DNA from: Laetmonice hystrix
Lineage: Eukaryota
NCBI GenBank assembly: GCA_965235115.1
Contig: OZ249436.1
Coordinates: 25,112,001-25,176,000, forward strand
Length of the DNA: 64,000 bases
Direction: 5' to 3'
Below the pieces are notes generated by a model. The model made no database searches, was not told the DNA's origin, and saw only the letters and a program-made list of their open reading frames with translations. The translations under genes and the position numbers were made by a program. This document shows, in pieces, positions 1-25,600 of the stretch (position 1 is its first letter; every line of letters starts with the position of its first letter).

Positions 1-868
1 CCAGCCTAAAACGATGTTGCAATTAATTTAAAATTAACAAGATGCACTAGTAATCCGATCCAAGCTTAATTACGTCATTGCTAGTTTCATAACCAAATCT
101 CACAGAAAATACCCCACCCGGGCACATAACCTGAAAATATTCAACTTTTATCTCCAATGTATCCCTGTGCACCTAGTAGCACACAAGCGGGCCCAATTTT
201 GACATTCCAACACAAATACCGCAAATACCCGCCTAATGGCACAAAAAACTTTCTACCCCGTTGCAAGTCACATTAGCTTGCTGCTTGTCGTAAAAAATGG
301 TGCAGATCATTTCTAAAGTCACAGTACCCCACTCCCGGCCTAATATTACGTTTCAGTATCCATATACGCTGCAAGCGGCAGGAACTCGAATACAGGCCTA
401 AAAGTAACCCCAGTCTAGCAATATCATACTCTCATGCCATATACGAGCTTGTAATTATCTTTAATTAATGGGCTCCGCAGCACCAACCCACTGCATTAAC
501 ATTTGTTTAACAGCTTAACGCACCTTGTAAAAAATTTTCAAGTGCGTAAAAATGCGTGTCCACCTCCACATACTTTAAAAATCACTATACCCACCCAGCG
601 ACATTCACTCTAATACACGCCTAAGAGGAACTTCACTGTCCCATTTGAATCTCCAGCACGTATAGGATGTTTCAAGTAACATTTATCCACGGTCTGGCCC
701 AATAACGTGTAACAAGGCATAGTAAGTCAATGCGAGCTCGCATGTCAAACCTAACCCGCCCCCCCCAGCACATGAGCTGAAAATATTCAAATAGCTTGAA
801 AACTAGAATATAGCTTTGCTTAATACCATTATACCATGAACTCGCATTACAGGCCTAATGCGAAGCTC
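1..868. repeat. Subunit A of the satellite unit (representative copy, unit 1)
   Basis: Colinear with 869-1757 along its length. Examples: CCAGCCTAAAACGA at 1 and 869; TTAACAAGATGCACTA, CACTATACCCACC and ATGTCAAACCTAA in both; TAGCTTGAAAACTAGAATATAGCTTTG at 792 and 1651. Confidence 0.95.
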
Positions 869-1757
869 CCAGCCTAAAACGAGTTTCCAAATAATTTAAA
901 GTTAACAAGATGCACTAATAATCGATTCCAAGCCTAATTAGGCCATTGCTAGTTGGATAACCAAATCTCATACAAAATACACCCTCCCGGCAGATGACCT
1001 GAGAATATTTAACTCTTATGTCCGATATATCCCTGTCTGCTTAGTAGCACCCAGCCGGGCCCCCATTTTGACATTGCAACACCAATACAGCAAGTGCCCA
1101 GCTAACAGCACAAATAACAGGATTCAGGGCTTCCTACCACGTTACAAGTCACAATAGATTGCTGCCTGTCGTAAAAATATACCAGACCATTTTAAAAAGT
1201 CACAGAACCCCAATCCGGCCCTAATATGTCACTCCCAGTACCAATAGACGCTGGAAGCACCATCAACTGAAATTCAGGCCTAGAACCCACCTCTCTCTAC
1301 CAATATCATGCACCTAGTCCGTATACGAGGTTGTAATTTACTTTAATCAACGGGCTGCGCCGCAGCAACCCACTCTGGTCTTTGCAATCTTTTTCAATAT
1401 GCGTTAACATTTGTGACCAGCTCAACGCGCCTTGTAAAATTTTTCAAAGTGCGTAAAAGTGTCTGTCCACCCCGACACGCTTTCCAAACCACTATACCCA
1501 CCGAGCGACATCCACTCAAATACAGGCTTCGACCGATCCTCACTGTGCCAATAATCCGCCACAAGGCAAATTCAGTCAATGCAAGCTGGAAAATCGAATG
1601 TCAAACCTAATGCTCCCCCCCCCCCAGCACGTTAACTGAAAAAAATCAACTAGCTTGAAAACTAGAATATAGCTTTGTTTAGCTAACAATCTACTCTCCC
1701 AGCGCCATCAACTCGCATACAGGCGTAAAAGCAAACGCACTGCCCCATATAATGCTC
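869..1757. repeat. Subunit B of the satellite unit (representative copy, unit 1)
   Basis: Diverged paralogue of subunit A with fixed substitutions and indels. B has extra sequence near 1374-1400 and lacks the block at A ~645-698. A and B alternate strictly throughout the window. Confidence 0.95.
1614..1625 (+). repeat. Variable-length poly(C) tract in subunit B (representative copy)
   Basis: CTAAT(G/A)CT-C(n)-AGCAC has about 9-12 C depending on the unit. This accounts for most of the variation in unit length. Confidence 0.85.
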
Positions 1758-2784
1758 CCAGCCTAAGACGATGTTGCAATTAATTTAAGATTAACAAGAT
1801 GCACTAGTAATCCGATCCAAGCCTAATTACGTCATTGCTAGTTTCATAACCAAATCTCACAGAAAATACCCCACCCGCGCACATAACCTGAAAATATTTA
1901 ACTTTTATCTCCAATGTATCCCTGTGCACCTAGTAGCACACAAGCGGGCCCAATTTTGACATCCCAACACAAATACCGCAAATACCCGCCTAATGGCACA
2001 AAAAACTTTCTACCCCGTTGCAAGTCACATTAGCGTGCTGCTTGTCGTAAAAAATGGTGCAGACCATTTCTAAAGTCACAGTACCCCACTCCCGGCCTAA
2101 TATTACGTTTCAGTATCCATATACGCTGCAAGCGGCAGGAACTCGAATACAGGCCTAAAAGTAACCTCAGTCTAGCAATATCATACTCCCATGCCATATA
2201 CGAGCTTGTAATTATCTTTAATTAATGGGCTCCGCAGCACCAACCCACTGCATTAACATTTGTTTAACAGCTTAACGCACCTTGTAAAATTTTTTCAAGT
2301 GCGTAAAAATGCGTGTCCACCTCCACATACTTTAAAAATCACTATACCCACCCAGCGACATCCACTCTAATACACGCCTAAAAGGAACTTCACTGTCCCA
2401 TTTGATTCTCCAGCACGTATAGGATGTTTCAAGTAACATTCATCCACGGTCTGGCCCAATAACGTGCAGCAAGGCATAGTAAGTCAATGCGAGCTCGCAT
2501 GTCAAACCTAACCCGCCCCCAAGCACATGAGCTGAAAATATTCAAATAGCTTGAAAACTAGAATATAGCTTTGCTTAATACCATTATACCATCAACTCGC
2601 ATTACAGGCCTAATGCGAAGCTCCCAGCCTAAAACGAGTTTCCAAATAATTTAAAGTTAACAAGATGCACTAATAATCGATTCCAAGCCTAATTAGGCCA
2701 TTGCTAGTTGGATAACCAAATCTCATACAAAATACACCCTCCCGGCAGATGACCTGAGAATATTTAACTCTTATGTCCGATATA

Positions 2785-3170
2785 GGGAGCGTAAGTATGT
2801 CACGTCACAATGCGTGAATCGACGAGAAATGCGGTTTGGAGGCCCAAACTGGCGCCAGCCAAATTCCGGTTCCGTTCATTTAGCATTGGGAGGCCCATTG
2901 AAAAAGCGTTCTAACTGATAACTCCAAAATTACTGTTCTCTTTGCTATCAAACTGACTATACATCAGAACCAACATCTCTTATGTCAGAAAAAATACATT
3001 TTATACTTAAGAAATATTTAATTGTCAAAAGAAAGGCCGATGTTTGAAGAGGTGTAGGCTCGCCCTATGTTAAACCAGTGGGGGATTGTGACGTAACGGA
3101 AGTGGCATGTCGCCAGCGGTCTGACCCAGTTAGACCGAACCTCGTTTTCGGTCGCGAGACTTACGCTCCC
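2785..3170. mobile_element. Non-autonomous DNA transposon (MITE) with 12-bp terminal inverted repeats, inserted in subunit B of unit 2
   Basis: The left end GGGAGCGTAAGT (2785-2796) is the exact reverse complement of the right end ACTTACGCTCCC (3159-3170). TATA flanks both sides (2781-2784, 3171-3174). The other units show the empty site GTCCGA-TATA-TCCCTG. Unit 2 is 2143 bp = 1753 + 390. No transposase ORF. Confidence 0.93.
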
Positions 3171-6100
3171 TATATCCCTGTCTGCTTAGTAGCACCCAGC
3201 CGGGCCCCCATTTTGACATTGCAACACCAATACAGCAAGTGCCCAGCTAACAGCACAAATAACAGGATTCAGGGCTTCCTACCACGTTACAAGTCACAAT
3301 AGATTGCTGCCTGTCGTAAAAATATACCAGACCATTTTAAAAAGTCACAGAACCCCAATCCGGCCCTAATATGTCACTCCCAGTACCAATACACGCTGGA
3401 AGCACCATCAACTGAAATTCAGGCCTAGAACCCACCTCTCTCTACCAATATCATGCACCTAGTCCGTATACGAGGTTGTAATTTACTTTAATCAACGGGC
3501 TGTGCCGCAGCAACCCACTCTGGTCTTTGCAATCTTTTTCAATATGCGTTAACATTTGTAACCAGCTCAACGCGCCTTGTAAAATTTTTCAAAGTGCGTA
3601 AAGTGTGTGTCCACCCCGACACGCTTTCCAAACCACTATACCCACCGAGCGACATCCACTCAAATACAGGCTTCGACCGATCCTCACTGTGCCAATAATC
3701 CGCCACAAGGCAAATTCAGTCAATGCAAGCTGGAAAATCGAATGTCAAACCTAATACTCCCCCCCCCCAGCACGTTAACTGAAAATAATCAACTAGCTTG
3801 AAAACTAGAATATAGCTTTGTTTAGCTAACAATCTACTCTCCCAGCGCCATCAACTCGCATACAGGCGTAAAAGCAAACGCACTGCCCCATATAATGCTC
3901 CCAGCCTAAAACGATGTTGCAATTAATTTAAAATTAACAAGATGCACTAGTAATCCGATCCAAGCTTAATTACGTCATTGCTAGTTTCATAATCAAATCT
4001 CACAGAAAATACCCTTCCCGGGCAGATAACCTGAAAATATTCAACTTTTATCTCCAATGTATCCCTGTGCACCTAGTAGCACACAAGCGGGCCCAATTTT
4101 GACATTCCAAGACAAAAACCGCAAATACCCGCCTAATGGCACAGAAAACTTTCTACCCCGTTGCAAGTCACATTAGCTTGCTGCTTGTCGTAAAAAATGG
4201 TGCAGACCATTTCTAAAGTCACAGTACCCCACTCCCGGCCTAATATTACGTTTCAGTATCCATATACGCTGCAAGCGGCAGGAACTCGAATACAGGCCTA
4301 AAAGTAACCCCAGTCTAGCAATATCATACTCCCATGCCATATACGAGCTTGTAATTATCTTTAATTAATGGGCTCCGCAGCACCAACCCACTGCATTAAC
4401 ATTTGTTTAACAGCTTAACGCACCTTGTAAAATTTTTTCAAGTGCGTAAAAATGCGTGTCCACCTCCACATACTTTAAAAATCACTATACCCACCCAGCG
4501 ACATCCACTCTAATACACGCCTAAAAGGAACTTCACTGTCCCATTTGATTCTCCAGCACGTATAGGATGTTTCAAGTAACATTCATCCACGGTCTGGCCC
4601 AATAACGTGCAACAAGGCATAGTAAGTCAATGCGAGCTCGCATGTCAAACCTAACCCGCCCCCAAGCACATGAGCTGAAAATATTCAAATAGCTTGAAAA
4701 CTAGAATATAGCTTTGCTTAATACCATTATACCATCAACTCGCATTACAGGCCTAATGCGAAGCTCCCAGCCTAAAACGAGTTTCCAATTAATTTAAAGT
4801 TAACAAGATGCACTAATAATCGATTCCAAGCCTAATTAGGCCATTGCTAGTTGGATAACCAAATCTCATACAAAATACACCCTCCCGGCAGATGACCTGA
4901 GAATATTCAACTCTTATGTCCGATATATCCCTGTCCGCTTAGTAGCACCCAGCCGGGCCCCCATTTTGACATTGCAACACCAATACAGCAAGTGCCCAGC
5001 TAACAGCACAAATAACAGGATTCAGGGCTTCCTACCACGTTACAAGTCACAATAGATTGCTGCCTGTCGTAAAAATATACCAGACCATTTTAAAAAGTCA
5101 CAGAACCCCAATCCGGCCCTAATATGTCACTCCCAGTACCAATAGACGCTGGAAGCACCATCAACTGAAATTCAGGCCTAGAACCCACCTCTCTCTACCA
5201 ATATCATGCACCTAGTCCGTATACGAGGTTGTAATTTACTTTAATCAACGGGCTTCGCCGCAGCAACCCACTCTGGTCTTTGCAATCTTTTTCAATATGC
5301 GTTAACATTTGTGACCAGCTCAACGCGCCTTGTAAAATTTTTCAAAGTGCGTAAAAGTGTCTGTCCACCCCGACACGCTTTCCAAACCACTATACCCACC
5401 GAGCGACATCCACTCAAATACAGGCTTCGACCGATCCTCACTGTGCCAATAATCCGCCACAAGGCAAATTCAGTCAATGCAAGCTGGAAAATCGAATGTC
5501 AAACCTAATGCTCCCCCCCCCCCAGCACGTTAACTGAAAAAAATCAACTAGCTTGAAAACTAGAATATAGCTTTGTTTAGCTAACAATCTACTCTCCCAG
5601 CGCCATCAACTCGCATACAGGCGTAAAAGCAAACGCACTGCCCCATATAATGCTCCCAGCCTAAGACGATGTTGCAATTAATTTAAGATTAACAAGATGC
5701 ACTAGTAATCCGATCCAAGCCTAATTACGTCATTGCTAGTTTCATAACCAAATCTCACAGAAAATACCCCACCCGCGCACATAACCTGAAAATATTTAAC
5801 TTTTATCTCCAATGTATCCCTGTGCACCTAGTAGCACACAAGCGGGCCCAATTTTGACATCCCAACACAAATACCGCAAATACCCGCCTAATGGCACAAA
5901 AAACTTTCTACCCCGTTGCAAGTCACATTAGCGTGCTGCTTGTCGTAAAAAATGGTGCAGACCATTTCTAAAGTCACAGTACCCCACTCCCGGCCTAATA
6001 TTACGTTTCAGTATCCATATACGCTGCAAGCGGCAGGAACTCGAATACAGGCCTAAAAGTAACCTCAGTCTAGCAATATCATACTCCCATGCCATATACG

Positions 6101-7538
6101 AGCTTCTAATTATCTTTAATTAATGGGCTCCGCAGCACCAACCCACTGCATTAACATTTGTTTAACAGCTTAACGCACCTTGTAAAATTTTTTCAAGTGC
6201 GTAAAAATGCGTGTCCACCTCCACATACTTTAAAAATCACTATACCCACCCAGCGACATCCACTCTAATACACGCCTAAAAGGAACTTCACTGTCCCATT
6301 TGATTCTCCAGCACGTATAGGATGTTTCAAGTAACATTCATCCACGGTCTGGCCCAATAACGTGCAGCAAGGCATAGTAAGTCAATGCGAGCTCGCATGT
6401 CAAACCTAACCCGCCCCCAAGCACATGAGCTGAAAATATTCAAATAGCTTGAAAACTAGAATATAGCTTTGCTTAATACCATTATACCATCAACTCGCAT
6501 TACAGGCCTAATGCGAAGCTCCCAGCCTAAAACGAGTTTCCAATTAATTTAAAGTTAACAAGATGCACTAATAATCGATTCCAAGCCTAATTAGGCCATT
6601 GCTAGTTGGATAACCAAATCTCATACAAAATACACCCTCCCGGCAGATGACCTGAGAATATTCAACTCTTATGTCCGATATATCCCTGTCCGCTTAGTAG
6701 CACCCAGCCGGGCCCCCATTTTGACATTGCAACACCAATACAGCAAGTGCCCAGCTAACAGCACAAATAACAGGATTCAGGGCTTCCTACCACGTTACAA
6801 GTCACAATAGATTGCTGCCTGTCGTAAAAATATACCAGACCATTTTAAAAAGTCACAGAACCCCAATCCGGCCCTAATATGTCACTCCCAGTACCAATAC
6901 ACGCTGGAAGCACCATCAACTGAAATTCAGGCCTAGAACCCACCTCTCTCTACCAATATCATGCACCTAGTCCGTATACGAGGTTGTAATTTACTTTAAT
7001 CAACGGGCTGCGCCGCAGCAACCCACTCTGGTCTTTGCAATCTTTTTCAATATGCGTTAACATTTGTGACCAGCTCAACGCGCCTTGTAAAATTTTTCAA
7101 AGTGCGTAAAAGTGTGTGTCCACCCCGACACGCTTTCCAAACCACTATACCCACCGAGCGACATCCACTCAAATACAGGCTTCGACCGATCCTCACTGTG
7201 CCAATAATCCGCCACAAGGCAAATTCAGTCAATGCAAGCTGGAAAATCGAATGTCAAACCTAATGCTCCCCCCCCAGCACGTTAACTGAAAAAAATCAAC
7301 TAGCTTGAAAACTAGAATATAGCTTTGTTTAGCTAACAATCTACTCTCCCAGCGCCATCAACTCGCATACAGGCGTAAAAGCAAACGCACTGCCCCATAT
7401 AATGCTCCCAGCCTAAGACGATGTTGCAATTAATTTAAGATTAACAAGATGCACTAGTAATCCGATCCAAGCCTAATTACGTCATTGCTAGTTTCATAAC
7501 CAAATCTCACAGAAAATACCCCACCCGCGCACATAACC

Positions 7539-7638
7539 NNNNNNNNNNNNNNNNNNNNNNNNNNNNNNNNNNNNNNNNNNNNNNNNNNNNNNNNNNNNNN
7601 NNNNNNNNNNNNNNNNNNNNNNNNNNNNNNNNNNNNNN
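7539..7638. other. Assembly gap (100 N)
   Basis: Run of exactly 100 N. The flanks correspond to unit positions ~131 and ~265, so the true gap is 133 bp plus an unknown whole number of units if it contains only repeat. Confidence 0.99.
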
Positions 7639-10600
7639 AAGTCACATTAGCTTGCTGCTTGTCGTAAAAAATGGTGCAGACCATTTCTAAAGTCACAGTA
7701 CCCCACTCCCGGCCTAATATTACGTTTCAGTATCCATATACGCTGCAAGCGGCAAGAACTCGAATACAGGCCTAAAAGTAACCCCAGTCTAGCAATATCA
7801 TACTCTCATGCCATATACGAGCTTGTAATTATCTTTAATTAATGGGCTCCGCAGCACCAACCCACTGGATTAACATTTGTTTAACAGCTTAACGCACCTT
7901 GTAAAAAATTTTCAAGTGCGTAAAAATGCGTGTCCACCTCCACATACTTTAAAAATCACTATACCCACCCAGCGACATTCACTCTAATACACGCCTAAGA
8001 GGAACTTCACTGTCCCATTTGATTCTCCAGCACGTATAGGATGTTTCAAGTAACATTCATCCACGGTCTGGCCCAATAACGTGCAACAAGGCATAGTAAG
8101 TCAATGCGAGCTTGCATGTCAAACCTAACCCGCCCCCCAGCACATGAGCTGAAAATATTCAAATAGCTTGAAAACTAGAATATAGCTTTGCTTAATACCA
8201 TTATACCATCAACTCGCATTACAGGCCTAATGCGAAGCTCCCAGCCTAAAACGAGTTTCCAATTAATTTAAAGTTAACAAGATGCACTAATAATCGATTC
8301 CAAGCCTAATTAGGCCATTGCTAGTTGGATAACCAAATCTCATACAAAATACACCCTCCCGGCAGATGACCTGAGAATATTCAACTCTTATGTCCGATAT
8401 ATCCCTGTCCGCTTTGTAGCACCCAGCCGGGCCCCCATTTTGACATTGCAACACCAATACAGCAAGTGCCCAGCTAACAGCACAAATAACAGGATTCAGG
8501 GCTTCCTACCACGTTACAAGTCACAATAGATTGCTGCCTGTCGTAAAAATATACCAGACCATTTTAAAAAGTCACAGAACCCCAATCCGGCCCTAATATG
8601 TCACTCCCAGTACCAATACACTCTGGAAGCACCATCAACTGAAATTCAGGCCTAGAACCCACCTCTCTCTACCAATATCATGCACCTAGTCCGTATACGA
8701 GGTTGTAATTTACTTTAATCAACGGGCTGCGCCGCAGCAACCCACTCTGGTCTTTGCAATCTTTTTCAATATGCGTTAACATTTGTAACCAGCTCAACGC
8801 GCCTTGTAAAATTTTTCAAAGTGCGTAAAAGTGTGTGTCCACCCCGACACGCTTTCCAAACCACTATACCCACCGAGCGACATCCACTCAAATACAGGCT
8901 TCGACCGATCCTCACTGTGCCAATAATCCGCCACAAGGCAAATTCAGTCAATGCAAGCTGGAAAATCGAATGTCAAACCTAATACTCCCCCCCCCCCAGC
9001 AGGTTAACTGAAAATAATCAACTAGCTTGAAAACTAGAATATAGCTTTGTTTAGCTAACAATCTACTCTCCCAGCGCCATCAACTCGCATACAGGCGTAA
9101 AAGCAAACGCACTGCCCCATATAATGCTCCCAGCCTAAAACGATGTTGCAATTAATTTAAAATTAACAAGATGCACTAGTAATCCGATCCAAGCTTAATT
9201 ACGTCATTGCTAGTTTCATAACCAAATCTCACAGAAAATACCCCACCCGGGCACAGAACCTGAAAATATTCAACTTTTATCTCCAATGTATCCCTGTGCA
9301 CCTAGTAGCACCCAAGCGGGCCCAATTTTGACATCCCAACACAAATACCGCAAATACCCGCCTAATGGCACAAAAAACTTTCTACCCCGTTGCAAGTCAC
9401 ATTAGCGTGCTGCTTGTCGTAAAAAATGGTGCAGACCATTTCTAAAGTCACAGTACCCCACTCCCGGCCTAATATTACGTTTCAGTATCCATATACGCTG
9501 CAAGCGGCAGGAACTCGAATACAGGCCTAAAAGTAACCTCAGTCTAGCAATATCATACTCCCATGCCATATACGAGCTTGTAATTATCTTTAATTAATGG
9601 GCTCCGCAGCACCAACCCACTGCATTAACATTTGTTTAACAGCTTAACGCACCTTGTAAAATTTTTTCAAGTGCGTAAAAATGCGTGTCCACCTCCACAT
9701 ACTTTAAAAATCACTATACCCACCCAGCGACATTCACTCTAATACACGCCTAAGAGGAACTTCACTGTCCCATTTGATTCTCCAGCACGTATAGGATGTT
9801 TCAAGTAACATTTATCCACGGTCTGGCCCAATAACGTGCAACAAGGCATAGTAAGTCAATGCGACCTCGCATGTCAAACCTAACCCGCCCCCCAGCACAT
9901 GAGCTGGAGATATTCAAATAGCTTGAAAACTAGAATATAGCTTTGCTTAATACCATTATACCATCAACTCGCATTACAGGCCTAATGCGAAGCTCCCAGC
10001 CTAAAACGAGTTTCCAATTAATTTAAAGTTAACAAGATGCACTAATAATCGATTCCAAGCCTAATTAGGCCATTGCTAGTTGGATAACCAAATCTCATAC
10101 AAAATACACCCTCCCGGCAGATGACCTGAGAATATTCAACTCTTATGTCCGATATATCCCTGTCCGCTTAGTAGCACCCAGCCGGGCCCCCATTTTGACA
10201 TTGCAACACCAATACAGCAAGTGCCCAGCTAACAGCACAAATAACAGGATTCAGGGCTTCCTACCACGTTACAAGTCACAATAGATTGCTGCCTGTCGTA
10301 AAAATATACCAGACCATTTTAAAAAGTCACAGAACCCCAATCCGGCCCTAATATGTCACTCCCAGTACCAATAGACGCTGGAAGCACCATCAACTGAAAT
10401 TCAGGCCTAGAACCCACCTCTCTCTACCAATATCATGCACCTAGTCCGTATACGAGGTTGTAATTTACTTTAATCAACGGGCTGCGCCGCAGCAACCCAC
10501 TCTGGTCTTTGCAATCTTTTTCAATATGCGTTAACATTTGTGACCAGCTCAACGCGCCTTGTAAAATTTTTCAAAGTGCGTAAAAGTGTGTGTCCACCCC

Positions 10601-13600
10601 GACACGCTTTCCAAACCACTATACCCACCGAGCGACATCCACTCAAATACAGGCTTCGACCGATCCTCACTGTGCCAATAATCCGCCACAAGGCAAATTC
10701 AGTCAATGCAAGCTGGAAAATCGAATGTCAAACCTAATGCTCCCCCCCCCAGCACGTTAACTGAAAATAATCAACTAGCTTGAAAACTAGAATATAGCTT
10801 TCTTAAGCTAACAATCTACTCTCCCAGCGCCATCAACTCGCATACAGGCGTAAAAGCAAACGCACTGCCCCATATAATGCTCCCAGCCTAAAACGATGTT
10901 GCAATTAATTTAAAATTAACAAGATGCACTAGTAATCCGATCCAAGCCTAATTACGTCATTGCTAGTTTCATAACCAAATCTCACAGAAAATACCCCACC
11001 CGCGCACATAACCTGAAAATATTCAACTTTTATCTCCAATGTATCCCTGTGCACCTAGTAGCACCCAAGCGGGCCCAATTTTGACATTCCAACACAAATA
11101 CCGCAAATACCCGCCTAATGGCACAAAAAACTTTCTACCCCGTTGCAAGTCACATTAGCTTGCTGCTTGTCGTAAAAAATGGTGCAGACCATTTCTAAAG
11201 TCACAGTACCCCACTCCCGGCCTAATATTACGTTTCAGTATCCATATACGCTGCAAGCGGCAGGAACTCGAATACAGGCCTAAAAGTAACCCCAGTCTAG
11301 CAATATCATACTCTCATGCCATATACGAGCTTGTAATTATCTTTAATTAATGGGCTCCGCAGCACCAACCCACTGCATTAACATTTGTTTAACAGCTTAA
11401 CGCACCTTGTAAAAAATTTTCAAGTGCGTAAAAATGCGTGTCCACCTCCACATACTTTAAAAATCACTATACCCACCCAGCGACATTCACTCTAATACAC
11501 GCCTAAGAGGAACTTCACTGTCCCATTTGATTCTCCAGCACGTATAGGATGTTTCAAGTAACATTTATCCACGGTCTGGCCCAATAACGTGCAACAAGGC
11601 ATAGTAAGTCAATGCGACCTCGCATGTCAAACCTAACCCGCCCCCCAGCACATGAGCTGGAGATATTCAAATAGCTTGAAAACTAGAATATAGCTTTGCT
11701 TAATACCATTATACCATCAACTCGCATTACAGGCCTAATGCGAAGCTCCCAGCCTAAAACGAGTTTCCAATTAATTTAAAGTTAACAAGATGCACTAATA
11801 ATCGATTCCAAGCCTAATTAGGCCATTGCTAGTTGGATAACCAAATCTCATACAAAATACACCCTCCCGGCAGATGACCTGAGAATATTCAACTCTTATG
11901 TCCGATATATCCCTGTCCGCTTAGTAGCACCCAGCCGGGCCCCCATTTTGACATTGCAACACCAATACAGCAAGTGCCCAGCTAACAGCACAAATAACAG
12001 GATTCAGGGCTTCCTACCACGTTACAAGTCACAATAGATTGCTGCCTGTCGTAAAAATATACCAGACCATTTTAAAAAGTCACAGAACCCCAATCCGGCC
12101 CTAATATGTCACTCCCAGTACCAATAGACGCTGGAAGCACCATCAACTGAAATTCAGGCCTAGAACCCACCTCTCTCTACCAATATCATGCACCTAGTCC
12201 GTATACGAGGTTGTAATTTACTTTAATCAACGGGCTGCGCCGCAGCAACCCACTCTGGTCTTTGCAATCTTTTTCAATATGCGTTAACATTTGTGACCAG
12301 CTCAACGCGCCTTGTAAAATTTTTCAAAGTGCGTAAAAGTGTGTGTCCACCCCGACACGCTTTCCAAACCACTATACCCACCGAGCGACATCCACTCAAA
12401 TACAGGCTTCGACCGATCCTCACTGTGCCAATAATCCGCCACAAGGCAAATTCAGTCAATGCAAGCTGGAAAATCGAATGTCAAACCTAATGCTCCCCCC
12501 CCCAGCACGTTAACTGAAAATAATCAACTAGCTTGAAAACTAGAATATAGCTTTGTTAAGCTAACAATCTACTCTCCCAGCGCCATCAACTCGCATACAG
12601 GCGTAAAAGCAAACGCACTGCCCCATATAATGCTCCCAGCCTAAAACGATGTTGCAATTAATTTAAAATTAACAAGATGCACTAGTAATCCGATCCAAGC
12701 CTAATTACGTCATTGCTAGTTTCATAACCAAATCTCACAGAAAATACCCCACCCGCGCACATAACCTGAAAATATTCAACTTTTATCTCCAATGTATCCC
12801 TGTGCACCTAGTAGCACCCAAGCGGGCCCAATTTTGACATTCCAACACAAATACCGCAAATACCCGCCTAATGGCACAAAAAACTTTCTACCCCGTTGCA
12901 AGTCACATTAGCTTGCTGCTTGTCGTAAAAAATGGTGCAGACCATTTCTAAAGTCACAGTACCCCACTCCCGGCCTAATATTACGTTTCAGTATCCATAT
13001 ACGCTGCAAGCGGCAGGAACTCGAATACAGGCCTAAAAGTAACCCCAGTCTAGCAATATCATACTCTCATGCCATATACGAGCTTGTAATTATCTTTAAT
13101 TAATGGGCTCCGCAGCACCAACCCACTGCATTAACATTTGTTTAACAGCTTAACGCACCTTGTAAAAAATTTTCAAGTGCGTAAAAATGCGTGTCCACCT
13201 CCACATACTTTAAAAATCACTATACCCACCCAGCGACATTCACTCTAATACACGCCTAAGAGGAACTTCACTGTCCCATTTGATTCTCCAGCACGTATAG
13301 GATGTTTCAAGTAACATTTATCCACGGTCTGGCCCAATAACGTGCAACAAGGCATAGTAAGTCAATGCGACCTCGCATGTCAAACCTAACCCGCCCCCCA
13401 GCACATGAGCTGGAGATATTCAAATAGCTTGAAAACTAGAATATAGCTTTGCTTAATACCATTATACCATCAACTCGCATTACAGGCCTAATGCGAAGCT
13501 CCCAGCCTAAAACGAGTTTCCAATTAATTTAAAGTTAACAAGATGCACTAATAATCGATTCCAAGCCTAATTAGGCCATTGCTAGTTGGATAACCAAATC

Positions 13601-16600
13601 TCATACAAAATACACCCTCCCGGCAGATGACCTGAGAATATTCAACTCTTATGTCCGATATATCCCTGTCCGCTTAGTAGCACCCAGCCGGGCCCCCATT
13701 TTGACATTGCAACACCAATACAGCAAGTGCCCAGCTAACAGCACAAATAACAGGATTCAGGGCTTCCTACCACGTTACAAGTCACAATAGATTGCTGCCT
13801 GTCGTAAAAATATACCAGACCATTTTAAAAAGTCACAGAACCCCAATCCGGCCCTAATATGTCACTCCCAGTACCAATAGACGCTGGAAGCACCATCAAC
13901 TGAAATTCAGGCCTAGAACCCACCTCTCTCTACCAATATCATGCACCTAGTCCGTATACGAGGTTGTAATTTACTTTAATCAACGGGCTGCGCCGCAGCA
14001 ACCCACTCTGGTCTTTGCAATCTTTTTCAATATGCGTTAACATTTGTGACCAGCTCAACGCGCCTTGTAAAATTTTTCAAAGTGCGTAAAAGTGTGTGTC
14101 CACCCCGACACGCTTTCCAAACCACTATACCCACCGAGCGACATCCACTCAAATACAGGCTTCGACCGATCCTCACTGTGCCAATAATCCGCCACAAGGC
14201 AAATTCAGTCAATGCAAGCTGGAAAATCGAATGTCAAACCTAATGCTCCCCCCCCCCCAGCACGTTAACTGAAAAAAATCAACTAGCTTGAAAACTAGAA
14301 TATAGCTTTGTTTAGCTAACAATCTACTCTCCCAGCGCCATCAACTCGCATACAGGCGTAAAAGCAAACGCACTGCCCCATATAATGCTCCCAGCCTAAG
14401 ACGATGTTGCAATTAATTTAAGATTAACAAGATGCACTAGTAATCCGATCCAAGCCTAATTACGTCATTGCTAGTTTCATAACCAAATCTCACAGAAAAT
14501 ACCCCACCCGCGCACATAACCTGAAAATATTCAACTTTTATCTCCAATGTATCCCTGTGCAGCTAGTAGCACACAAGCGGGCCCAATTTTGACATCCCAA
14601 CACAAATACCGCAAATACCCGCCTAATGGCACAAAAAACTTTCTACCCCGTTGCAAGTCACATTAGCGTGCTGCTTGTCGTAAAAAATGGTGCAGACCAT
14701 TTCTAAAGTCACAGTACCCCACTCCCGGCCTAATATTACGTTTCAGTATCCATATACGCTGCAAGCGGCAGGAACTCGAATACAGGCCTAAAAGTAACCT
14801 CAGTCTAGCAATATCATACTCCCATGCCATATACGAGCTTGTAATTATCTTTAATTAATGGGCTCCGCAGCACCAACCCACTGCATTAACATTTGTTTAA
14901 CAGCTTAACGCACCTTGTAAAATTTTTTCAAGTGCGTAAAAATGCGTGTCCACCTCCACATACTTTAAAAATCACTATACCCACCCAGCGACATCCACTC
15001 TAATACACGCCTAAGAGGAACTTCACTGTCCCATTTGATTCTCCAGCACGTATAGGATGTTTCAAGTAACATTTATCCACGGTCTGGCCCAATAACGTGC
15101 AACAAGGCATAGTAAGTCAATGCGAGCTCGCATGTCAAACCTAACCCGCCCCCCAGCACATGAGCTGAAAATATTCAAATAGCTTGAAAACTAGAATATA
15201 GCTTTGCTTAATACCATTATACCATCAACTCGCATTACAGGCCTAATGCGAAGCTCCCAGCCTAAAACGAGTTTCCAATTAATTTAAAGTTAACAAGATG
15301 CACTAATAATCGATTCCAAGCCTAATTAGGCCATTGCTAGTTGGATAACCAAATCTCATACAAAATACACCCTCCCGGCAGATGACCTGAGAATATTCAA
15401 CTCTTATGTCCGATATATCCCTGTCCGCTTAGTAGCACCCAGCCGGGCCCCCATTTTGACATTGCAACACCAATACAGCAAGTGCCCAGCTAACAGCACA
15501 AATAACAGGATTCAGGGCTTCCTACCACGTTACAAGTCACAATAGATTGCTGCCTGTCGTAAAAATATACCAGACCATTTTAAAAAGTCACAGAACCCCA
15601 ATCCGGCCCTAATATGTCACTCCCAGTACCAATACACGCTGGAAGCACCATCAACTGAAATTCAGGCCTAGAACCCACCTCTCTCTACCAATATCATGCA
15701 CCTAGTCCGTATACGAGGTTGTAATTTACTTTAATCAACGGGCTGCGCCGCAGCAACCCACTCTGGTCTTTGCAATCTTTTTCAATATGCGTTAACATTT
15801 GTAACCAGCTCAACGCGCCTTGTAAAATTTTTCAAAGTGCGTAAAAGTGTGTGTCCACCCCGACACGCTTTCCAAACCACTATACCCACCGAGCGACATC
15901 CACTCAAATACAGGCTTCGACCGATCCTCACTGTGCCAATAATCCGCCACAAGGCAAATTCAGTCAATGCAAGCTGGAAAATCGAATGTCAAACCTAATA
16001 CTCCCCCCCCCAGCACGTTAACTGAAAATAATCAACTAGCTTGAAAACTAGAATATAGCTTTGTTTAGCTAACAATCTACTCTCCCAGCGCCATCAACTC
16101 GCATACAGGCGTAAAAGCAAACGCACTGCCCCATATAATGCTCCCAGCCTAAAACGATGTTGCAATTAATTTAAAATTAACAAGATGCACTAGTAATCCG
16201 ATCCAAGCTGAATTACGTCATTGCTAGTTTCATAACCAAATCTCACAGAAAATACCCCACCCGGGCACATAACCTGAAAATATTCAACTTTTATCTCCAA
16301 TGTATCCCTGTGCACCTAGTAGCACCCAAGCGGGCCCAATTTTGACATCCCAACACAAATACCGCAAATACCCGCCTAATGGCACAAAAAACTTTCTACC
16401 CCGTTGCAAGTTACATTAGCGTGCTGCTTGTCGTAAAAAATGGTGCAGACCATTTCTAAAGTCACAGTACCCCACTCCCGGCCTAATATTACGTTTCAGT
16501 ATCCATATACGCTGCAAGCGGCAGGAACTCGAATACAGGCCTAAAAGTAACCTCAGTCTAGCAATATCATACTCCCATGCCATATACGAGCTTGTAATTA

Positions 16601-19600
16601 TCTTTAATTAATGGGCTCCGCAGCACCAACCCACTGCATTAACATTTGTTTAACAGCTTAACACACCTTGTAAAATTTTTTCAAGTGCGTAAAAATGCGT
16701 GTCCACCTCCACATACTTTAAAAATCACTATACCCACCCAGCGACATCCACTCTAATACACGCCTAAAAGGAACTTCACTGTCCCATTTGATTCTCCAGC
16801 ACGTATAGGATGTTTCAAGTAACATTCATCCACGGTCTGGCCCAATAACGTGCAACAAGGCATAGTAAGTCAATGCGAGCTCGCATGTCAAACCTAACCC
16901 GCCCCCAAGCACATGAGCTGAAAATATTCAAATAGCTTGAAAACTAGAATATAGCTTTGCTTAATACCATTATACCATCAACTCGCATTACAGGCCTAAT
17001 GCGAAGCTCCCAGCCTAAAACGAGTTTCCAATTAATTTAAAGTTAACAAGATGCACTAATAATCGATTCCAAGCCTAATTAGGCCATTGCTAGTTGGATA
17101 ACCAAATCTCATACAAAATACACCCTCCCGGCAGATGACCTGAGAATATTCAACTCTTATGTCCGATATATCCCTGTCCGCTTAGTAGCACCCAGCCGGG
17201 CCCCCATTTTGACATTGCAACACCAATACAGCAAGTGCCCAGCTAACAGCACAAATAACAGGATTCAGGGCTTCCTACCACGTTACAAGTCACAATAGAT
17301 TGCTGCCTGTCGTAAAAATATACCAGACCATTTTAAAAAGTCACAGAACCCCAATCCGGCCCTAATATGTCACTCCCAGTACCAATAGACGCTGGAAGCA
17401 CCATCAACTGAAATTCAGGCCTAGAACCCACCTCTCTCTACCAATATCATGCACCTAGTCCGTATACGAGGTTGTAATTTCCTTTAATCAACGGGCTGCG
17501 CCGCAGCAACCCACTCTGGTCTTTGCAATCTTTTTCAATATGCGTTAACATTTGTGACCAGCTCAACGCGCCTTGTAAAATTTTTCAAAGTGCGTAAAAG
17601 TGTGTGTCCACCCCGACACGCTTTCCAAACCACTATACCCACCGAGCGACATCCACTCAAATACAGGCTTCGACCGATCCTCACTGTGCCAATAATCCGC
17701 CACAAGGCAAATTCAGTCAATGCAAGCTGGAAAATCGAATGTCAAACCTAATGCTCCCCCCCCAGCACGTTAACTGAAAATAATCAACTAGCTTGAAAAC
17801 TAGAATATAGCTTTGTTTAGCTAACAATCTACTCTCCCAGCGCCATCAACTCGCATACAGGCGTAAAAGCAAACGCACTGCCCCATATAATGCTCCCAGC
17901 ATAAAACGATGTTGCAATTAATTTAAAATTAACAAGATGCACTAGTAATCCGATCCAAGCTTAATTACGTCATTGCTAGTTTCATAACCAAATCTCACAG
18001 AAAATACCCCACCCGCGCACATAACCTGAAAATATTCAACTTTTATCTCCAATGTATCCCTGTGCACCTAGTAGCACCCAAGCGGGCCCAATTTTGACAT
18101 CCCAACACAAATACCGCAAATACCCGCCTAATGGCACAAAAAACTTTCTACCCCGTTGCAAGTTACATTAGCGTGCTGCTTGTCGTAAAAAATGGTGCAG
18201 ACCATTTCTAAAGTCACAGTACCCCACTCCCGGCCTAATATTACGTTTCAGTATCCATATACGCTGCAAGCGGCAGGAACTCGAATACAGGCCTAAAAGT
18301 AACCTCAGTCTAGCAATATCATACTCCCATGCCATATACGAGCTTGTAATTATCTTTAATTAATGGGCTCCGCAGCACCAACCCACTGCATTAACATTTG
18401 TTTAACAGCTTAACACACCTTGTAAAATTTTTTCAAGTGCGTAAAAATGCGTGTCCACCTCCACATACTTTAAAAATCACTATACCCACCCAGCGACATC
18501 CACTCTAATACACGCCTAAAAGGAACTTCACTGTCCCATTTGATTCTCCAGCACGTATAGGATGTTTCAAGTAACATTCATCCACGGTCTGGCCCAATAA
18601 CGTGCAACAAGGCATAGTAAGTCAATGCGAGCTCGCATGTCAAACCTAACCCGCCCCCAAGCACATGAGCTGAAAATATTCAAATAGCTTGAAAACTAGA
18701 ATATAGCTTTGCTTAATACCATTATACCATCAACTCGCATTACAGGCCTAATGCGAAGCTCCCAGCCTAAAACGAGTTTCCAATTAATTTAAAGTTAACA
18801 AGATGCACTAATAATCGATTCCAAGCCTAATTAGGCCATTGCTAGTTGGATAACCAAATCTCATACAAAATACACCCTCCCGGCAGATGACCTGAGAATA
18901 TTCAACTCTTATGTCCGATATATCCCTGTCCGCTTAGTAGCACCCAGCCGGGCCCCCATTTTGACATTGCAACACCAATACAGCAAGTGCCCAGCTAACA
19001 GCACAAATAACAGGATTCAGGGCTTCCTACCACGTTACAAGTCACAATAGATTGCTGCCTGTCGTAAAAATATACCAGACCATTTTAAAAAGTCACAGAA
19101 CCCCAATCCGGCCCTAATATGTCACTCCCAGTACCAATAGACGCTGGAAGCACCATCAACTGAAATTCAGGCCTAGAACCCACCTCTCTCTACCAATATC
19201 ATGCACCTAGTCCGTATACGAGGTTGTAATTTCCTTTAATCAACGGGCTGCGCCGCAGCAACCCACTCTGGTCTTTGCAATCTTTTTCAATATGCGTTAA
19301 CATTTGTGACCAGCTCAACGCGCCTTGTAAAATTTTTCAAAGTGCGTAAAAGTGTGTGTCCACCCCGACACGCTTTCCAAACCACTATACCCACCGAGCG
19401 ACATCCACTCAAATACAGGCTTCGACCGATCCTCACTGTGCCAATAATCCGCCACAAGGCAAATTCAGTCAATGCAAGCTGGAAAATCGAATGTCAAACC
19501 TAATGCTCCCCCCCCAGCACGTTAACTGAAAATAATCAACTAGCTTGAAAACTAGAATATAGCTTTGTTTAGCTAACAATCTACTCTCCCAGCGCCATCA

Positions 19601-22600
19601 ACTCGCATACAGGCGTAAAAGCAAACGCACTGCCCCATATAATGCTCCCAGCATAAAACGATGTTGCAATTAATTTAAAATTAACAAGATGCACTAGTAA
19701 TCCGATCCAAGCTTAATTACGTCATTGCTAGTTTCATAACCAAATCTCACAGAAAATACCCCACCCGCGCACATAACCTGAAAATATTCAACTTTTATCT
19801 CCAATGTATCCCTGTGCACCTAGTAGCACCCAAGCGGGCCCAATTTTGACATCCCAACACAAATACCGCAAATACCCGCCTAATGGCACAAAAAACTTTC
19901 TACCCCGTTGCAAGTTACATTAGCGTGCTGCTTGTCGTAAAAAATGGTGCAGACCATTTCTAAAGTCACAGTACCCCACTCCCGGCCTAATATTACGTTT
20001 CAGTATCCATATACGCTGCAAGCGGCAGGAACTCGAATACAGGCCTAAAAGTAACCTCAGTCTAGCAATATCATACTCCCATGCCATATACGAGCTTGTA
20101 ATTATCTTTAATTAATGGGCTCCGCAGCACCAACCCACTGCATTAACATTTGTTTAACAGCTTAACACACCTTGTAAAATTTTTTCAAGTGCGTAAAAAT
20201 GCGTGTCCACCTCCACATACTTTAAAAATCACTATACCCACCCAGCGACATCCACTCTAATACACGCCTAAAAGGAACTTCACTGTCCCATTTGATTCTC
20301 CAGCACGTATAGGATGTTTCAAGTAACATTCATCCACGGTCTGGCCCAATAACGTGCAACAAGGCATAGTAAGTCAATGCGAGCTCGCATGTCAAACCTA
20401 ACCCGCCCCCAAGCACATGAGCTGAAAATATTCAAATAGCTTGAAAACTAGAATATTGCTTTGCTTAATACCATTATACCATCAACTCGCATTACAGGCC
20501 TAATGCGAAGCTCCCAGCCTAAAACGAGTTTCCAATTAATTTAAAGTTAACAAGATGCACTAATAATCGATTCCAAGCCTAATTAGGCCATTGCTAGTTG
20601 GATAACCAAATCTCATACAAAATACACCCTCCCGGCAGATGACCTGAGAATATTCAACTCTTATGTCCGATATATCCCTGTCCGCTTAGTAGCACCCAGC
20701 CGGGCCCCCATTTTGACATTGCAACACCAATACAGCAAGTGCCCAGCTAACAGCACAAATAACAGGATTCAGGGCTTCCTACCACGTTACAAGTCACAAT
20801 AGATTGCTGCCTGTCGTAAAAATATACCAGACCATTTTAAAAAGTCACAGAACCCCAATCCGGCCCTAATATGTCACTCCCAGTACCAATAGACGCTGGA
20901 AGCACCATCAACTGAAATTCAGGCCTAGAACCCACCTCTCTCTACCAATATCATGCACCTAGTCCGTATACGAGGTTGTAATTTCCTTTAATCAACGGGC
21001 TGCGCCGCAGCAACCCACTCTGGTCTTTGCAATCTTTTTCAATATGCGTTAACATTTGTGACCAGCTCAACGCGCCTTGTAAAATTTTTCAAAGTGCGTA
21101 AAAGTGTGTGTCCACCCCGACACGCTTTCCAAACCACTATACCCACCGAGCGACATCCACTCAAATACAGGCTTCGACCGATCCTCACTGTGCCAATAAT
21201 CCGCCACAAGGCAAATTCAGTCAATGCAAGCTGGAAAATCGAATGTCAAACCTAATGCTCCCCCCCCCAGCACGTTAACTGAAAATAATCAACTAGCTTG
21301 AAAACTAGAATATAGCTTTGTTTAGCTAACAATCTACTCTCCCAGCGCCATCAACTCGCATACAGGCGTAAAAGCAAACGCACTGCCCCATATAATGCTC
21401 CCAGCATAAAACGATGTTGCAATTAATTTAAAATTAACAAGATGCACTAGTAATCCGATCCAAGCTTAATTACGTCATTGCTAGTTTCATAACCAAATCT
21501 CACAGAAAATACCCCACCCGCGCACATAACCTGAAAATATTCAACTTTTATCTCCAATGTATCCCTGTGCACCTAGTAGCACCCAAGCGGGCCCAATTTT
21601 GACATCCCAACACAAATACCGCAAATACCCGCCTAATGGCACAAAAAACTTTCTACCCCGTTGCAAGTTACATTAGCGTGCTGCTTGTCGTAAAAAATGG
21701 TGCAGACCATTTCTAAAGTCACAGTACCCCACTCCCGGCCTAATATTACGTTTCAGTATCCATATACGCTGCAAGCGGCAGGAACTCGAATACAGGCCTA
21801 AAAGTAACCTCAGTCTAGCAATATCATACTCCCATGCCATATACGAGCTTGTAATTATCTTTAATTAATGGGCTCCGCAGCACCAACCCACTGCATTAAC
21901 ATTTGTTTAACAGCTTAACACACCTTGTAAAATTTTTTCAAGTGCGTAAAAATGCGTGTCCACCTCCACATACTTTAAAAATCACTATACCCACCCAGCG
22001 ACATCCACTCTAATACACGCCTAAAAGGAACTTCACTGTCCCATTTGATTCTCCAGCACGTATAGGATGTTTCAAGTAACATTCATCCACGGTCTGGCCC
22101 AATAACGTGCAACAAGGCATAGTAAGTCAATGCGAGCTCGCATGTCAAACCTAACCCGCCCCCAAGCACATGAGCTGAAAATATTCAAATAGCTTGAAAA
22201 CTAGAATATAGCTTTGCTTAATACCATTATACCATCAACTCGCATTACAGGCCTAATGCGAAGCTCCCAGCCTAAAACGAGTTTCCAATTAATTTAAAGT
22301 TAACAAGATGCACTAATAATCGATTCCAAGCCTAATTAGGCCATTGCTAGTTGGATAACCAAATCTCATACAAAATACACCCTCCCGGCAGATGACCTGA
22401 GAATATTCAACTCTTATGTCCGATATATCCCTGTCCGCTTAGTAGCACCCAGCCGGGCCCCCATTTTGACATTGCAACACCAATACAGCAAGTGCCCAGC
22501 TAACAGCACAAATAACAGGATTCAGGGCTTCCTACCACGTTACAAGTCAGAATAGATTGCTGCCTGTCGTAAAAATATACCAGACCATTTTAAAAAGTCA

Positions 22601-25600
22601 CAGAACCCCAATCCGGCCCTAATATGTCACTCCCAGTACCAATAGACGCTGGAAGCACCATCAACTGAAATTCAGGCCTAGAACCCACCTCTCTCTACCA
22701 ATATCATGCACCTAGTCCGTATACGAGGTTGTAATTTACTTTAATCAACGGGCTGCGCCGCAGCAACCCACTCTGGTCTTTGCAATCTTTTTCACTATGC
22801 GTTAACATTTGTAACCAGCTCAACGCGCCTTGTAAAATTTTTCAAAGTGCGTAAAAGTGTGTGTCCACCCCGACACGCTTTCCAAACCACTATACCCACC
22901 GAGCGACATCCACTCAAATACAGGCTTCGACCGATCCTCACTGTGCCAATAATCCGCCACAAGGCAAATTCAGTCAATGCAAGCTGGAAAATCGAATGTC
23001 AAACCTAATGCTCCCCCCCCCAGCACGTTAACTGAAAATAATCAACTAGCTTGAAAACTAGAATATAGCTTTGTTAAGCTAACAATCTACTCTCCCAGCG
23101 CCATCAACTCGCATACAGGCGTAAAAGCAAACGCACTGCCCCATATAATGCTTCCAGCCTAAAACGATGTTGCAATTAATTTAAAATTAACAAGATGCAC
23201 TAGTAATCCGATCCAAGCCTAATTACGTCATTGCTAGTTTCATAACCAAATCTCACAGAAAATACCCCACCCGCGCACATAACCTGAAAATATTCAACTT
23301 TTATCTCCAATGTATCCCTGTGCACCTAGTAGCACCCAAGCGGGCCCAATTTTGACATTCCAACACAAATACCGCAAATACCCGCCTAATGGCACAAAAA
23401 ACTTTCTACCCCGTTGCAAGTCACATTAGCTTGCTGCTTGTCGTAAAAAATGGTGCAGACCATTTCTAAAGTCACAGTACCCCACTCCCGGCCTAATATT
23501 ACGTTTCAGTATCCATATACGCTGCAAGCGGCAGGAACTCGAATACAGGCCTAAAAGTAACCCCAGTCTAGCAATATCATACTCTCATGCCATATACGAG
23601 CTTGTAATTATCTTTAATTAATGGGCTCCGCAGCACCAACCCACTGCATTAACATTTGTTTAACAGCTTAACGCACCTTGTAAAAAATTTTCAAGTGCGT
23701 AAAAATGCGTGTCCACCTCCACATACTTTAAAAATCACTATACCCACCCAGCGACATTCACTCTAATACACGCCTAAGAGGAACTTCACTGTCCCATTTG
23801 ATTCTCCAGCACGTATAGGATGTTTCAAGTAACATTTATCCACGGTCTGGCCCAATAACGTGCAACAAGGCATAGTAAGTCAATGCGAGCTCGCATGTCA
23901 AACCTAACCCGCCCCCCAGCACATGAGCTGGAGATATTCAAATAGCTTGAAAACTAGAATATAGCTTTGCTTAATACCATTATACCATCAACTCGCATTA
24001 CAGGCCTAATGCGAAGCTCCCAGCCTAAAACGAGTTTCCAATTAATTTAAAGTTAACAAGATGCACTAATAATCGATTCCAAGCCTAATTAGGCCATTGC
24101 TAGTTGGATAACCAAATCTCATACAAAATACACCCTCCCGGCAGATGACCTGAGAATATTCAACTCTTATGTCCGATATATCCCTGTCCGCTTAGTAGCA
24201 CCCAGCCGGGCCCCCATTTTGACATTGCAACACCAATACAGCAAGTGCCCAGCTAACAGCACAAATAACAGGATTCAGGGCTTCCTACCACGTTACAAGT
24301 CACAATAGATTGCTGCCTGTCGTAAAAATATACCAGACCATTTTAAAAAGTCACAGAACCCCAATCCGGCCCTAATATGTCACTCCCAGTACCAATAGAC
24401 GCTGGAAGCACCATCAACTGAAATTCAGGCCTAGAACCCACCTCTCTCTACCAATATCATGCACCTAGTCCGTATACGAGGTTGTAATTTACTTTAATCA
24501 ACGGGCTGCGCCGCAGCAACCCACTCTGGTCTTTGCAATCTTTTTCAATATGCGTTAACATTTGTGACCAGCTCAACGCGCCTTGTAAAATTTTTCAAAG
24601 TGCGTAAAAGTGTGTGTCCACCCCGACACGCTTTCCAAACCACTATACCCACCGAGCGACATCCACTCAAATACAGGCTTCGACCGATCCTCACTGTGCC
24701 AATAATCCGCCACAAGGCAAATTCAGTCAATGCAAGCTGGAAAATCGAATGTCAAACGTAATGCTCCCCCCCCCAGCACGTTAACTGAAAAAAATCAACT
24801 AGCTTGAAAACTAGAATATAGCTTTGTTTAGCTAACAATCTACTCTCCCAGCGCCATCAACTCGCATACAGGCGTAAAAGCAAACGCACTGCCCCATATA
24901 ATGCTCCCAGCCTAAGACGATGTTGCAATTAATTTAAGATTAACAAGATGCACTAGTAATCCGATCCAAGCCTAATTACGTCATTGCTAGTTTCATAACC
25001 AAATCTCACAGAAAATACCCCACCCGCGCACATAACCTGAAAATATTCAACTTTTATCTCCAATGTATCCCTGTGCACCTAGTAGCACCCAAGCGGGCCC
25101 AATTTTGACATTCCAACACAAATACCGCAAATACCCGCCTAATGGCACAAAAAACTTTCTACCCCGTTGCAAGTCACATTAGCTTGCTGCTTGTCGTAAA
25201 AAATGGTGCAGACCATTTCTAAAGTCACAGTACCCCACTCCCGGCCTAATATTACGTTTCAGTATCCATATACGCTGCAAGCGGCAAGAACTCGAATACA
25301 GGCCTAAAAGTAACCCCAGTCTAGCAATATCATACTCTCATGCCATATACGAGCTTGTAATTATCTTTAATTAATGGGCTCCGCAGCACCAACCCACTGC
25401 ATTAACATTTGTTTAACAGCTTAACGCACCTTGTAAAAAATTTTCAAGTGCGTAAAAATGCGTGTCCACCTCCACATACTTTAAAAATCACTATACCCAC
25501 CCAGCGACATTCACTCTAATACACGCCTAAGAGGAACTTCACTGTCCCATTTGATTCTCCAGCACGTATAGGATGTTTCAAGTAACATTCATCCACGGTC

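What the first reader, a model, noticed from the sequence alone, without database searches (positions are those of the whole stretch)
1..1757. Hidden ~219-bp ancestral monomer: the 1753-bp unit looks like a 2 x 4 higher-order repeat
Seen: beneath the A/B dimer, a degenerate cassette recurs about every 190-260 bp (mean ~219). Compare AACTCGAATACAGGCCTAAAAGTAACCCCAGT...TACGAGCTTGTAATT (from 384), CACTCTAATACACGCCTAAGAGGAACTTCACTGTCCCAT...GGATGTTTCAAGT (from 606) and AACTCGCATACAGGCGTAAAAGCAAACGCACTGCCCCAT...CGATGTTGCAATT (from 1710). A GTTGCAA-like anchor falls at ~16, 260, 448, 669, 883, 1141 and 1330, is deleted at the eighth position in B, and returns at ~1773. GCACATAACCTGAAAATATTCAA (~122) matches GCACATGAGCTGAAAATATTCAA (~768), about three monomers away. 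CACAGAAAATACCCCACCCGGGC (~101) matches CACAGTACCCCACTCCCGGC (~320), one monomer away. Established: primate alpha-satellite higher-order repeats combine divergent monomers within a unit with near-identical units. Inference: this is a nested monomer > tetramer > octamer array of a satellite family I do not recognise, with a monomer near nucleosome-repeat length, and is a candidate centromeric repeat.
Basis: partly seen in the sequence, partly recalled or inferred. Interest (0 to 1): 0.75.

Follow-up and report, generated by a model that had tools for sequence, protein, structure and literature searches.

The report
Nested satellite repeat with hidden monomer
The whole window is one non-coding satellite array whose 1.75-kb unit was built in layers from an older unit of about 250 bases, a layout known from primate, mouse and beetle satellites; whether it serves as a centromere is untested.

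Summary
The hidden sub-repeat is real, but the '2 x 4 of 219 bp' model needs correcting. The window holds 36 tandem 1753-bp units; the 33 regular ones are 99.1% alike. Each unit is an A/B dimer (77-81% per segment). Six of its eight segments are homologous monomers of three types (41-62% alike between types), and they form An/Bn sister pairs with strong support. The two complete monomers are 252 and 248 bp; 219 is only 1753/8. The layout is therefore 2 x (3 + 1) on a ~250-bp monomer, a 'complex' higher-order repeat. Contigs from other public runs hold diverged relatives that switch between monomer types in register, so this is one array of a wider family. A ~9.8-bp A/T periodicity fits nucleosome wrapping. 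There is no CENP-B box, RNA gene, snRNA promoter or protein family. A centromeric role is plausible but untested. No earlier finding of this scan matched this DNA. New member of a known kind.

The parts
1..64000 (.). Head-to-tail satellite array: 36 units of ~1753 bp plus 47 bp, running off both window ends
   Evidence: 33 regular units, mean pairwise identity 99.1%
1..1757 (.). First full unit (A/B dimer, offsets 866/887)
   Evidence: A vs B 82% over 804 aligned columns, K2P 0.20
1..144 (.). Monomer A1, right part (cut by the window start); anchor at 16
145..348 (.). Segment A2 (204 bp): sister of B2, no significant homology to the other monomers; strongest WW periodicity
349..540 (.). Monomer A3 (192 bp; lacks 26 bp present in B3)
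541..790 (.). Monomer A4 (complete, 248 bp in the consensus)
791..1012 (.). Monomer B1 (222 bp; two deletions, ~30 bp in all)
1013..1234 (.). Segment B2 (222 bp), 77% like A2, not shown to be a monomer
1235..1446 (.). Monomer B3 (212 bp), with an imperfect 50-bp internal repeat at ~1373-1490
1447..1649 (.). Monomer B4 (201 bp; a ~60-column deletion removes the anchor)
1650..1901 (.). Monomer A1, complete copy (252 bp) across the unit junction
2785..3170 (.). 386-bp MITE-like insertion in the second unit's B2; perfect terminal inverted repeats GGGAGCGTAAGT, flanked by TATA on both sides
7539..7638 (.). 100-N assembly gap inside the array
48617..49554 (.). Perfect 469-bp tandem duplication (mid-B1 to mid-B3), not in monomer register

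Best explanation
A non-coding satellite array built by successive rounds of duplication, decay and re-amplification. (1) A ~250-bp monomer diverged into types 1, 3 and 4 (shown: homology and distances). (2) These three monomers plus a ~210-bp segment 2 formed an ~870-bp unit (shown: the structure; inferred: segment 2 is foreign DNA or a monomer decayed past recognition). (3) The 870-bp unit doubled into A and B, which drifted ~20% apart and lost different pieces (shown). (4) The 1753-bp dimer was amplified recently and is kept ~99% uniform by recombination or gene conversion that shuffles variants along the array (mosaicism shown; mechanism inferred). Most likely role: nucleosome-packed heterochromatin, with A/T steps at roughly helical spacing (periodicity shown; role inferred). 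I put a centromeric or pericentromeric location at about 0.5 and CENP-A binding to this array at about 0.3; both are judgements, not tests.
For: Off-diagonals far above shuffles. Held-out monomers are found by profiles at z 16-36, 0 of 400 shuffles. Sister pairs are supported at 99-100. Units are 99.1% alike; 284 of 561 shared-site pairs fail the four-gamete test and no periodic order of variants passes correction (family-wise 0.10). Logan contigs from 3 of the 4 runs laid include many pieces under 95% alike. Two joints between different monomer types fall in register: 27 columns skipped for 26 letters, and 28 for 28. WW power peaks at 9.7-9.9 bp: half A 8 of 300 shuffles, half B 0 of 300, A2 0 of 500; six-monomer profile 0.6% of 500 permutations. 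No Rfam family and no tRNA; 0 of 8 ORFs tested reach a Pfam cut-off.
Against: A2/B2 carry collinear look-alike motifs and reach z ~2 against A1/B1, so a true 2 x 4 is not excluded. WW periodicity is weak in the six true monomers taken singly (39-229 of 500). It is not significant for AA/TT, CC, SS or TA in the 10-11 band, its phase is not locked between monomers, and 9.8 bp is shorter than the usual 10.2-10.5 (own knowledge). There is no CENP-B box and no robust dyad excess (3, 19 and 17 of 100). The contig joints come from metagenomes and a differently labelled sample laid at 80% likeness, and may include other species.
Confidence: 0.8

Rival explanations
1. One reading: all eight segments descend from one monomer, and A2/B2 are simply the most decayed.
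For: A2/B2 have monomer-like lengths (204, 222 bp). A2 shows three look-alike motifs in monomer order, at ~176, 260 and 320 (seen). Pair-HMM z is 1.4-2.3 against A1/B1.
Against: Five tests give no significance after allowing for the number of comparisons. Rotated copies of A2/B2 score better than the in-phase ones. Identity to the other monomers in the 8-way alignment is 35-41%.
Confidence: 0.3
2. This array is the functional, CENP-A-bound centromere core of its chromosome, with related arrays on other chromosomes (as with alpha satellite).
For: At least 64 kb, 99% uniform, strictly periodic, with an assembly gap inside; relatives with other monomer orders exist; WW periodicity, described for many centromeric satellites (PMC12321929, passage). 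No CpG-transition excess among unit variants (0.040 vs 0.031 per site; CpG o/e 0.83), a faint hint of low methylation.
Against: No direct data. These features also occur in non-centromeric satellites. The monomer is longer than a nucleosome repeat. There is no CENP-B box, although that is not expected outside mammals.
Confidence: 0.3
3. A tandem array of small-RNA gene cassettes, with the conserved anchor serving as a SNAPc-type promoter (PSE) on the minus strand.
For: Conservation between monomer types is patchy, with peaks at columns 61-80 and 121-140 (68% and 67% against 35-58% elsewhere). The minus-strand anchor reminded me of the fly PSEA (recalled).
Against: The fly invariant core has 0 exact matches and the human PSE consensus 0 matches at two mismatches (motifs; test). 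No Rfam hit. Between A and B these blocks are no better kept than the rest, and they are partly deleted in B1 and B4. No fold is shared by the monomers. This animal's own PSE could not be tested.
Confidence: 0.06
4. A tandem array of a non-autonomous transposon (Helentron- or MITE-like) whose internal repeats are the monomers.
For: Earlier scan notes report tandem and nested transposon arrays in this genome (unchecked). There is one imperfect palindrome per half, at ~510-547 and ~1423-1460.
Against: No termini, microsatellite or target duplication between units. The monomer runs straight across the unit junction. No coding remnant.
Confidence: 0.08

Closest known systems
Primate alpha-satellite higher-order repeats (PMC8122249 and PMC5737470, passages)
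   Same: Diverged monomers inside near-identical, strictly periodic units; several related arrays with different monomer orders.
   Different: No sequence relation is claimed. Monomers are ~250 bp, vary from 192 to 252 bp and differ by 38-59% between types (alpha: 20-35%). One segment in four is not shown to be a monomer. No CENP-B box.
Complex HORs of Tribolium castaneum, e.g. three Tcast-360 monomers plus one unrelated ~1067-bp segment (PMC5737470, passages)
   Same: Three related monomers plus an extraneous segment, amplified as one unit.
   Different: Here the 3+1 unit has doubled again into an A/B dimer, the monomers are much older, and the extra segment is monomer-sized.
Mouse Y centromere Ymin (PMC3899357, passages)
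   Same: A kilobase-scale HOR (2.3-kb EcoRI unit in that paper) made of diverged satellite, in an array of similar scale (90 kb).
   Different: Ymin is shown to bind CENP-A and derives from minor satellite; nothing of the kind is shown here.
Candidate centromeric satellites of the Darwin Tree of Life atlas (bioRxiv 10.64898/2026.09.17.752431; outline, passages and section 6)
   Same: HORs are prevalent across 263 families, regimented ones occur in animals and plants, and 103 families have units of 201 bp to 5 kb.
   Different: Its main text has no occurrence of 'Annelida' or 'worm'. Supplementary Table 2 was not seen, so I cannot say whether this family is listed.

Membership tests
Higher-order-repeat satellite DNA | Long head-to-tail array of units less than ~5% diverged | tested here: met
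   36 units; 33 regular ones 99.1% mean identity
Higher-order-repeat satellite DNA | Unit made of monomers more diverged from each other than the units are | tested here: met
   six monomers 41-81% alike; tree
Regular (alpha-type) HOR | Unit is an unbroken tandem of homologous monomers | tested here: inconclusive
   A2/B2 not significantly homologous, z at most 2.3; homology not excluded
Regular (alpha-type) HOR | Monomers of nearly equal length, 20-35% diverged | tested here: not met
   192-252 bp; 38-59% apart between types
Complex HOR | Related subunits interspersed with extraneous or rearranged sequence | tested here: met
   3 monomers + 1 unalignable segment per half, with large deletions; definition
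Centromeric satellite | Bound by CENP-A/CenH3 | not testable with these tools
   no chromatin data
Centromeric satellite | One major array per chromosome at the primary constriction | not testable with these tools
   no whole genome held
Centromeric satellite | ~10-bp WW periodicity (common, not diagnostic) | tested here: met
   9.7-9.9 bp, modest, strongest in A2/B2
Mammalian CENP-B-type satellite | CENP-B box | tested here: not met
   1 match at one mismatch, inside the MITE, against 6.6 expected; 5 at two mismatches, 15 of 100 shuffles as high
snRNA-type tandem gene array | Known RNA family, or PSE promoter at a fixed position | tested here: not met
   only the fly and human PSE were tested

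The most novel reading that the evidence does not exclude
This is the active, chromosome-specific centromere core of a probable annelid. An alpha-satellite-like system of regimented HORs was built independently on an unusually old ~250-bp monomer, and a nucleosome-positioning ~10-bp rhythm has been kept even in a segment that lost or never had monomer identity. That would mean selection acts on DNA shape and not on sequence.
Probability: 0.25. Interest if true: 0.55.

Novelty: new member of a known kind. Interest (0 to 1): 0.3.

Why it matters
It records three layers of satellite history in one unit: monomer divergence of ~40-60%, dimer divergence of ~20% and unit divergence of ~1%. My searches with annelid or polychaete terms listed no paper devoted to an annelid satellite or centromere, so if the host is an annelid, as earlier scan notes suggest, this is a ready probe for FISH and CENP-A mapping in a little-studied group. 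The architecture itself is known, and HORs are reported as prevalent across eukaryotes, so a specialist would find it tidy but not surprising.

Tried and rejected
Whole genome: none held, so copy number, array ends and chromosome position are open. Rfam on 1-3950: one chance hit, E 4.2. ARAGORN: 0 genes. Pfam on 8 of the 39 stop-to-stop frames listed: one sub-threshold hit, E 0.12. Two exact-pattern scans of metagenome contigs gave 0 hits and one hit, L001, which shares only 22-25 letters and is chance. Sequencing runs: no RNA holder listed; this says nothing about expression. Run X8 gave a single 157-bp contig. A deeper 50-60-bp subunit was suggested by recurring GCCTAA and by conservation peaks ~60 columns apart, and is rejected. 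Within-monomer self-alignments are matched by 21-58 of 60 shuffles. Profile autocorrelation reaches max z 2.4, matched by 71% of nulls, and the 60-column period by 8%. GCCTAA occurs 6 times per half, but some hexamer is that frequent in 7% of shuffles. A super-HOR among the 1753-bp units (lag 7, z -2.6) fails family-wise correction, 0.10. A-to-B gene conversion: the minor allele equals the paralogous base in only 5 of 35 shared variants. The whole-unit WW test on a 0.1-bp grid was negative (200 of 300) because the grid misses the narrow peaks at 9.74 and 9.86. Segment lengths stepping in tens of bases depend on my own A2/B2 boundaries, and the anchor spacings do not show it, so I dropped the idea without a formal test. 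RNA folding: 2 of 88 windows reach z below -3 (25 shuffles each), with weak energies. Dfam and Repbase could not be searched. The MITE's superfamily was not settled. Earlier-finding look-ups for this DNA and for the MITE returned nothing.

Full report
Setting. The whole window is one tandem array. K-mer spacing and BLAST give 36 units of about 1753 bp running off both ends. The 33 regular units are 99.1% alike on average. Three units are irregular: one carries a 386-bp insertion, one spans a 100-N gap and one holds a 469-bp duplication. GC is 41-44% and the + strand is steadily C- and A-rich. No whole genome is held. Earlier scan notes call the host a probable annelid and place the window at least 25 Mb into its piece (AI notes, not checked here). 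The runs that hold the DNA are two coded organisms and marine metagenomes.

Is the hidden monomer real? Yes. Self-BLAST of the unit consensus shows the A/B dimer at offsets 866/887 and weaker off-diagonals, the best 226 columns at 64%, E 3e-16. Matching 30-bp windows cluster at offsets 180-259, 420-459, 620-659 and 840-879, well above 60 dinucleotide shuffles; the only other excess, at offset 50, is a local repeat in B3.

How many monomers? Cut after a shared end motif, the unit falls into eight segments of 252, 204, 192, 248, 222, 222, 212 and 201 bp. A1, A3, A4, B1, B3 and B4 are homologous: profiles trained on four of them recover the held-out pair at z 16-36, with 0 of 400 shuffles as high. 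Sisters are 77-81% alike and different types 41-62%; the three sister pairs have support of 99-100 / 98-99 (six rows). A2 and B2 are clear sisters (77%) but fail against the rest in five tests. The best signal is z 2.3 against A1/B1, and rotated copies score higher than in-phase ones. Short look-alike motifs lie in monomer order in A2, so extreme decay is possible, but it is not shown. The two undeleted monomers are 252 and 248 bp; B1, B4 and A3 lost about 30, 60 and 26 bp relative to their sisters. The defensible layout is 2 x (3 + 1) on a ~250-bp monomer. No deeper subunit survived testing.

Outside evidence. Four runs were laid on one unit (3901-5655) at 80% likeness. In three of them many contigs were under 95% alike (X5 18 of 25, X6 13 of 19, X2 42 of 56); X8 gave one contig. 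I mapped 13 joints to the monomer alignment. Eight had a known number of letters between the sides, and six of those had both ends in aligned monomers. Five of the six are in register: three within type 1 and two between types (A3 to B1, 27 columns for 26 letters; A1 to A3, 28 for 28). The sixth joins B1 to B3 and skips segment 2 (28-letter side, weak). The other five joints have unknown spacers and were not interpreted. So related arrays with other monomers and orders exist, which supports the register from outside the window. These contigs may come from other species, and their depth is not a copy number.

Array dynamics. Among the 33 units there are 95 variable columns, 39 of them shared. 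Variants fall into a handful of interspersed types with mosaics; 284 of 561 site pairs fail the four-gamete test, and no periodic order passes correction. Mean distance stays about flat over most lags. This fits recombination or conversion across the array (inference). Shared substitutions are commoner in half A than in B (26 vs 9, p 0.006), while singletons are not (30 vs 25); this is unexplained. CpG o/e is 0.83, with no excess of CpG transitions.

Function. Nothing codes. Rfam, ARAGORN and Pfam are negative. A snRNA-promoter reading of the anchor fails against the fly and human PSE motifs, and the blocks are deleted in B1 and B4. WW dinucleotides repeat at 9.7-9.9 bp in both halves, in the monomer profile and independently in A2; this is a modest signal, not seen for every dinucleotide class or monomer. 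A review states that a 10-bp WW periodicity is found in many centromeric satellites and favours nucleosome formation (PMC12321929, passage). There is no CENP-B box and no robust dyad excess. The most likely role is nucleosome-packed heterochromatin; centromeric or pericentromeric location about 0.5, CENP-A binding about 0.3 (judgement).

Comparison with what is known. It works like an alpha-satellite HOR (diverged monomers in near-identical units; PMC8122249 and PMC5737470, passages) but misses the regular-HOR features of even length and 20-35% divergence. It fits the 'complex HOR' class, for which Tribolium has 3+1 examples. Mouse Ymin is a kilobase-scale HOR of diverged satellite that does bind CENP-A (PMC3899357, passages). 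A 325-genome atlas finds HORs prevalent and 103 of 263 families with units over 200 bp (section 6 read); its supplements were not seen. Also seen as passages only: PMC1761439, PMC5493778, PMC4455052 and PMC12257675. Nine searches were run; none listed a description of this family, but the library cannot be searched by this sequence, and Dfam and Repbase were not available.

Verdict. Observation partly confirmed; interpretation partly supported. A real, previously unrecognised nested satellite, ordinary in kind. Interest 0.3.

Noticed in passing
window 2785-3170: A single 386-bp MITE-like insertion with perfect 12-bp terminal inverted repeats, in a palindromic TA-rich target. It can be read as a 4-bp TATA duplication, or as a 2-bp AT duplication with 13-bp repeats. 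It has weaker sub-terminal inverted repeats. Superfamily not settled.
   Followed up: partly
window 48617-49554: Perfect 469-bp tandem duplication inside one unit, 22 bp longer than the 447-bp spacing of the B1 and B3 anchors, so not an in-register monomer exchange.
   Followed up: partly
window 7539-7638: 100-N gap inside the array; the same unit variants lie on both sides, so the true array may be longer than assembled.
   Followed up: partly
all units, half A versus half B: Shared substitutions are about three times as frequent in half A (26) as in half B (9), p 0.006, while singletons are even; perhaps a recent sweep of the B half.
   Followed up: partly
window ~510-547 and ~1423-1460: An imperfect palindrome around an A/T tract ends monomer 3 in both halves.
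   Followed up: partly
unit consensus: GCCTAA occurs 9 times on the + strand against once on the - strand; its reverse complement resembles a telomere-type hexamer (recalled). Not significant after allowing for all hexamers (7%).
   Followed up: yes
L001:698-908: In the unrelated chance-hit contig, a 211-bp element with a near-perfect internal inverted repeat, plus other dispersed repeats.
   Followed up: no
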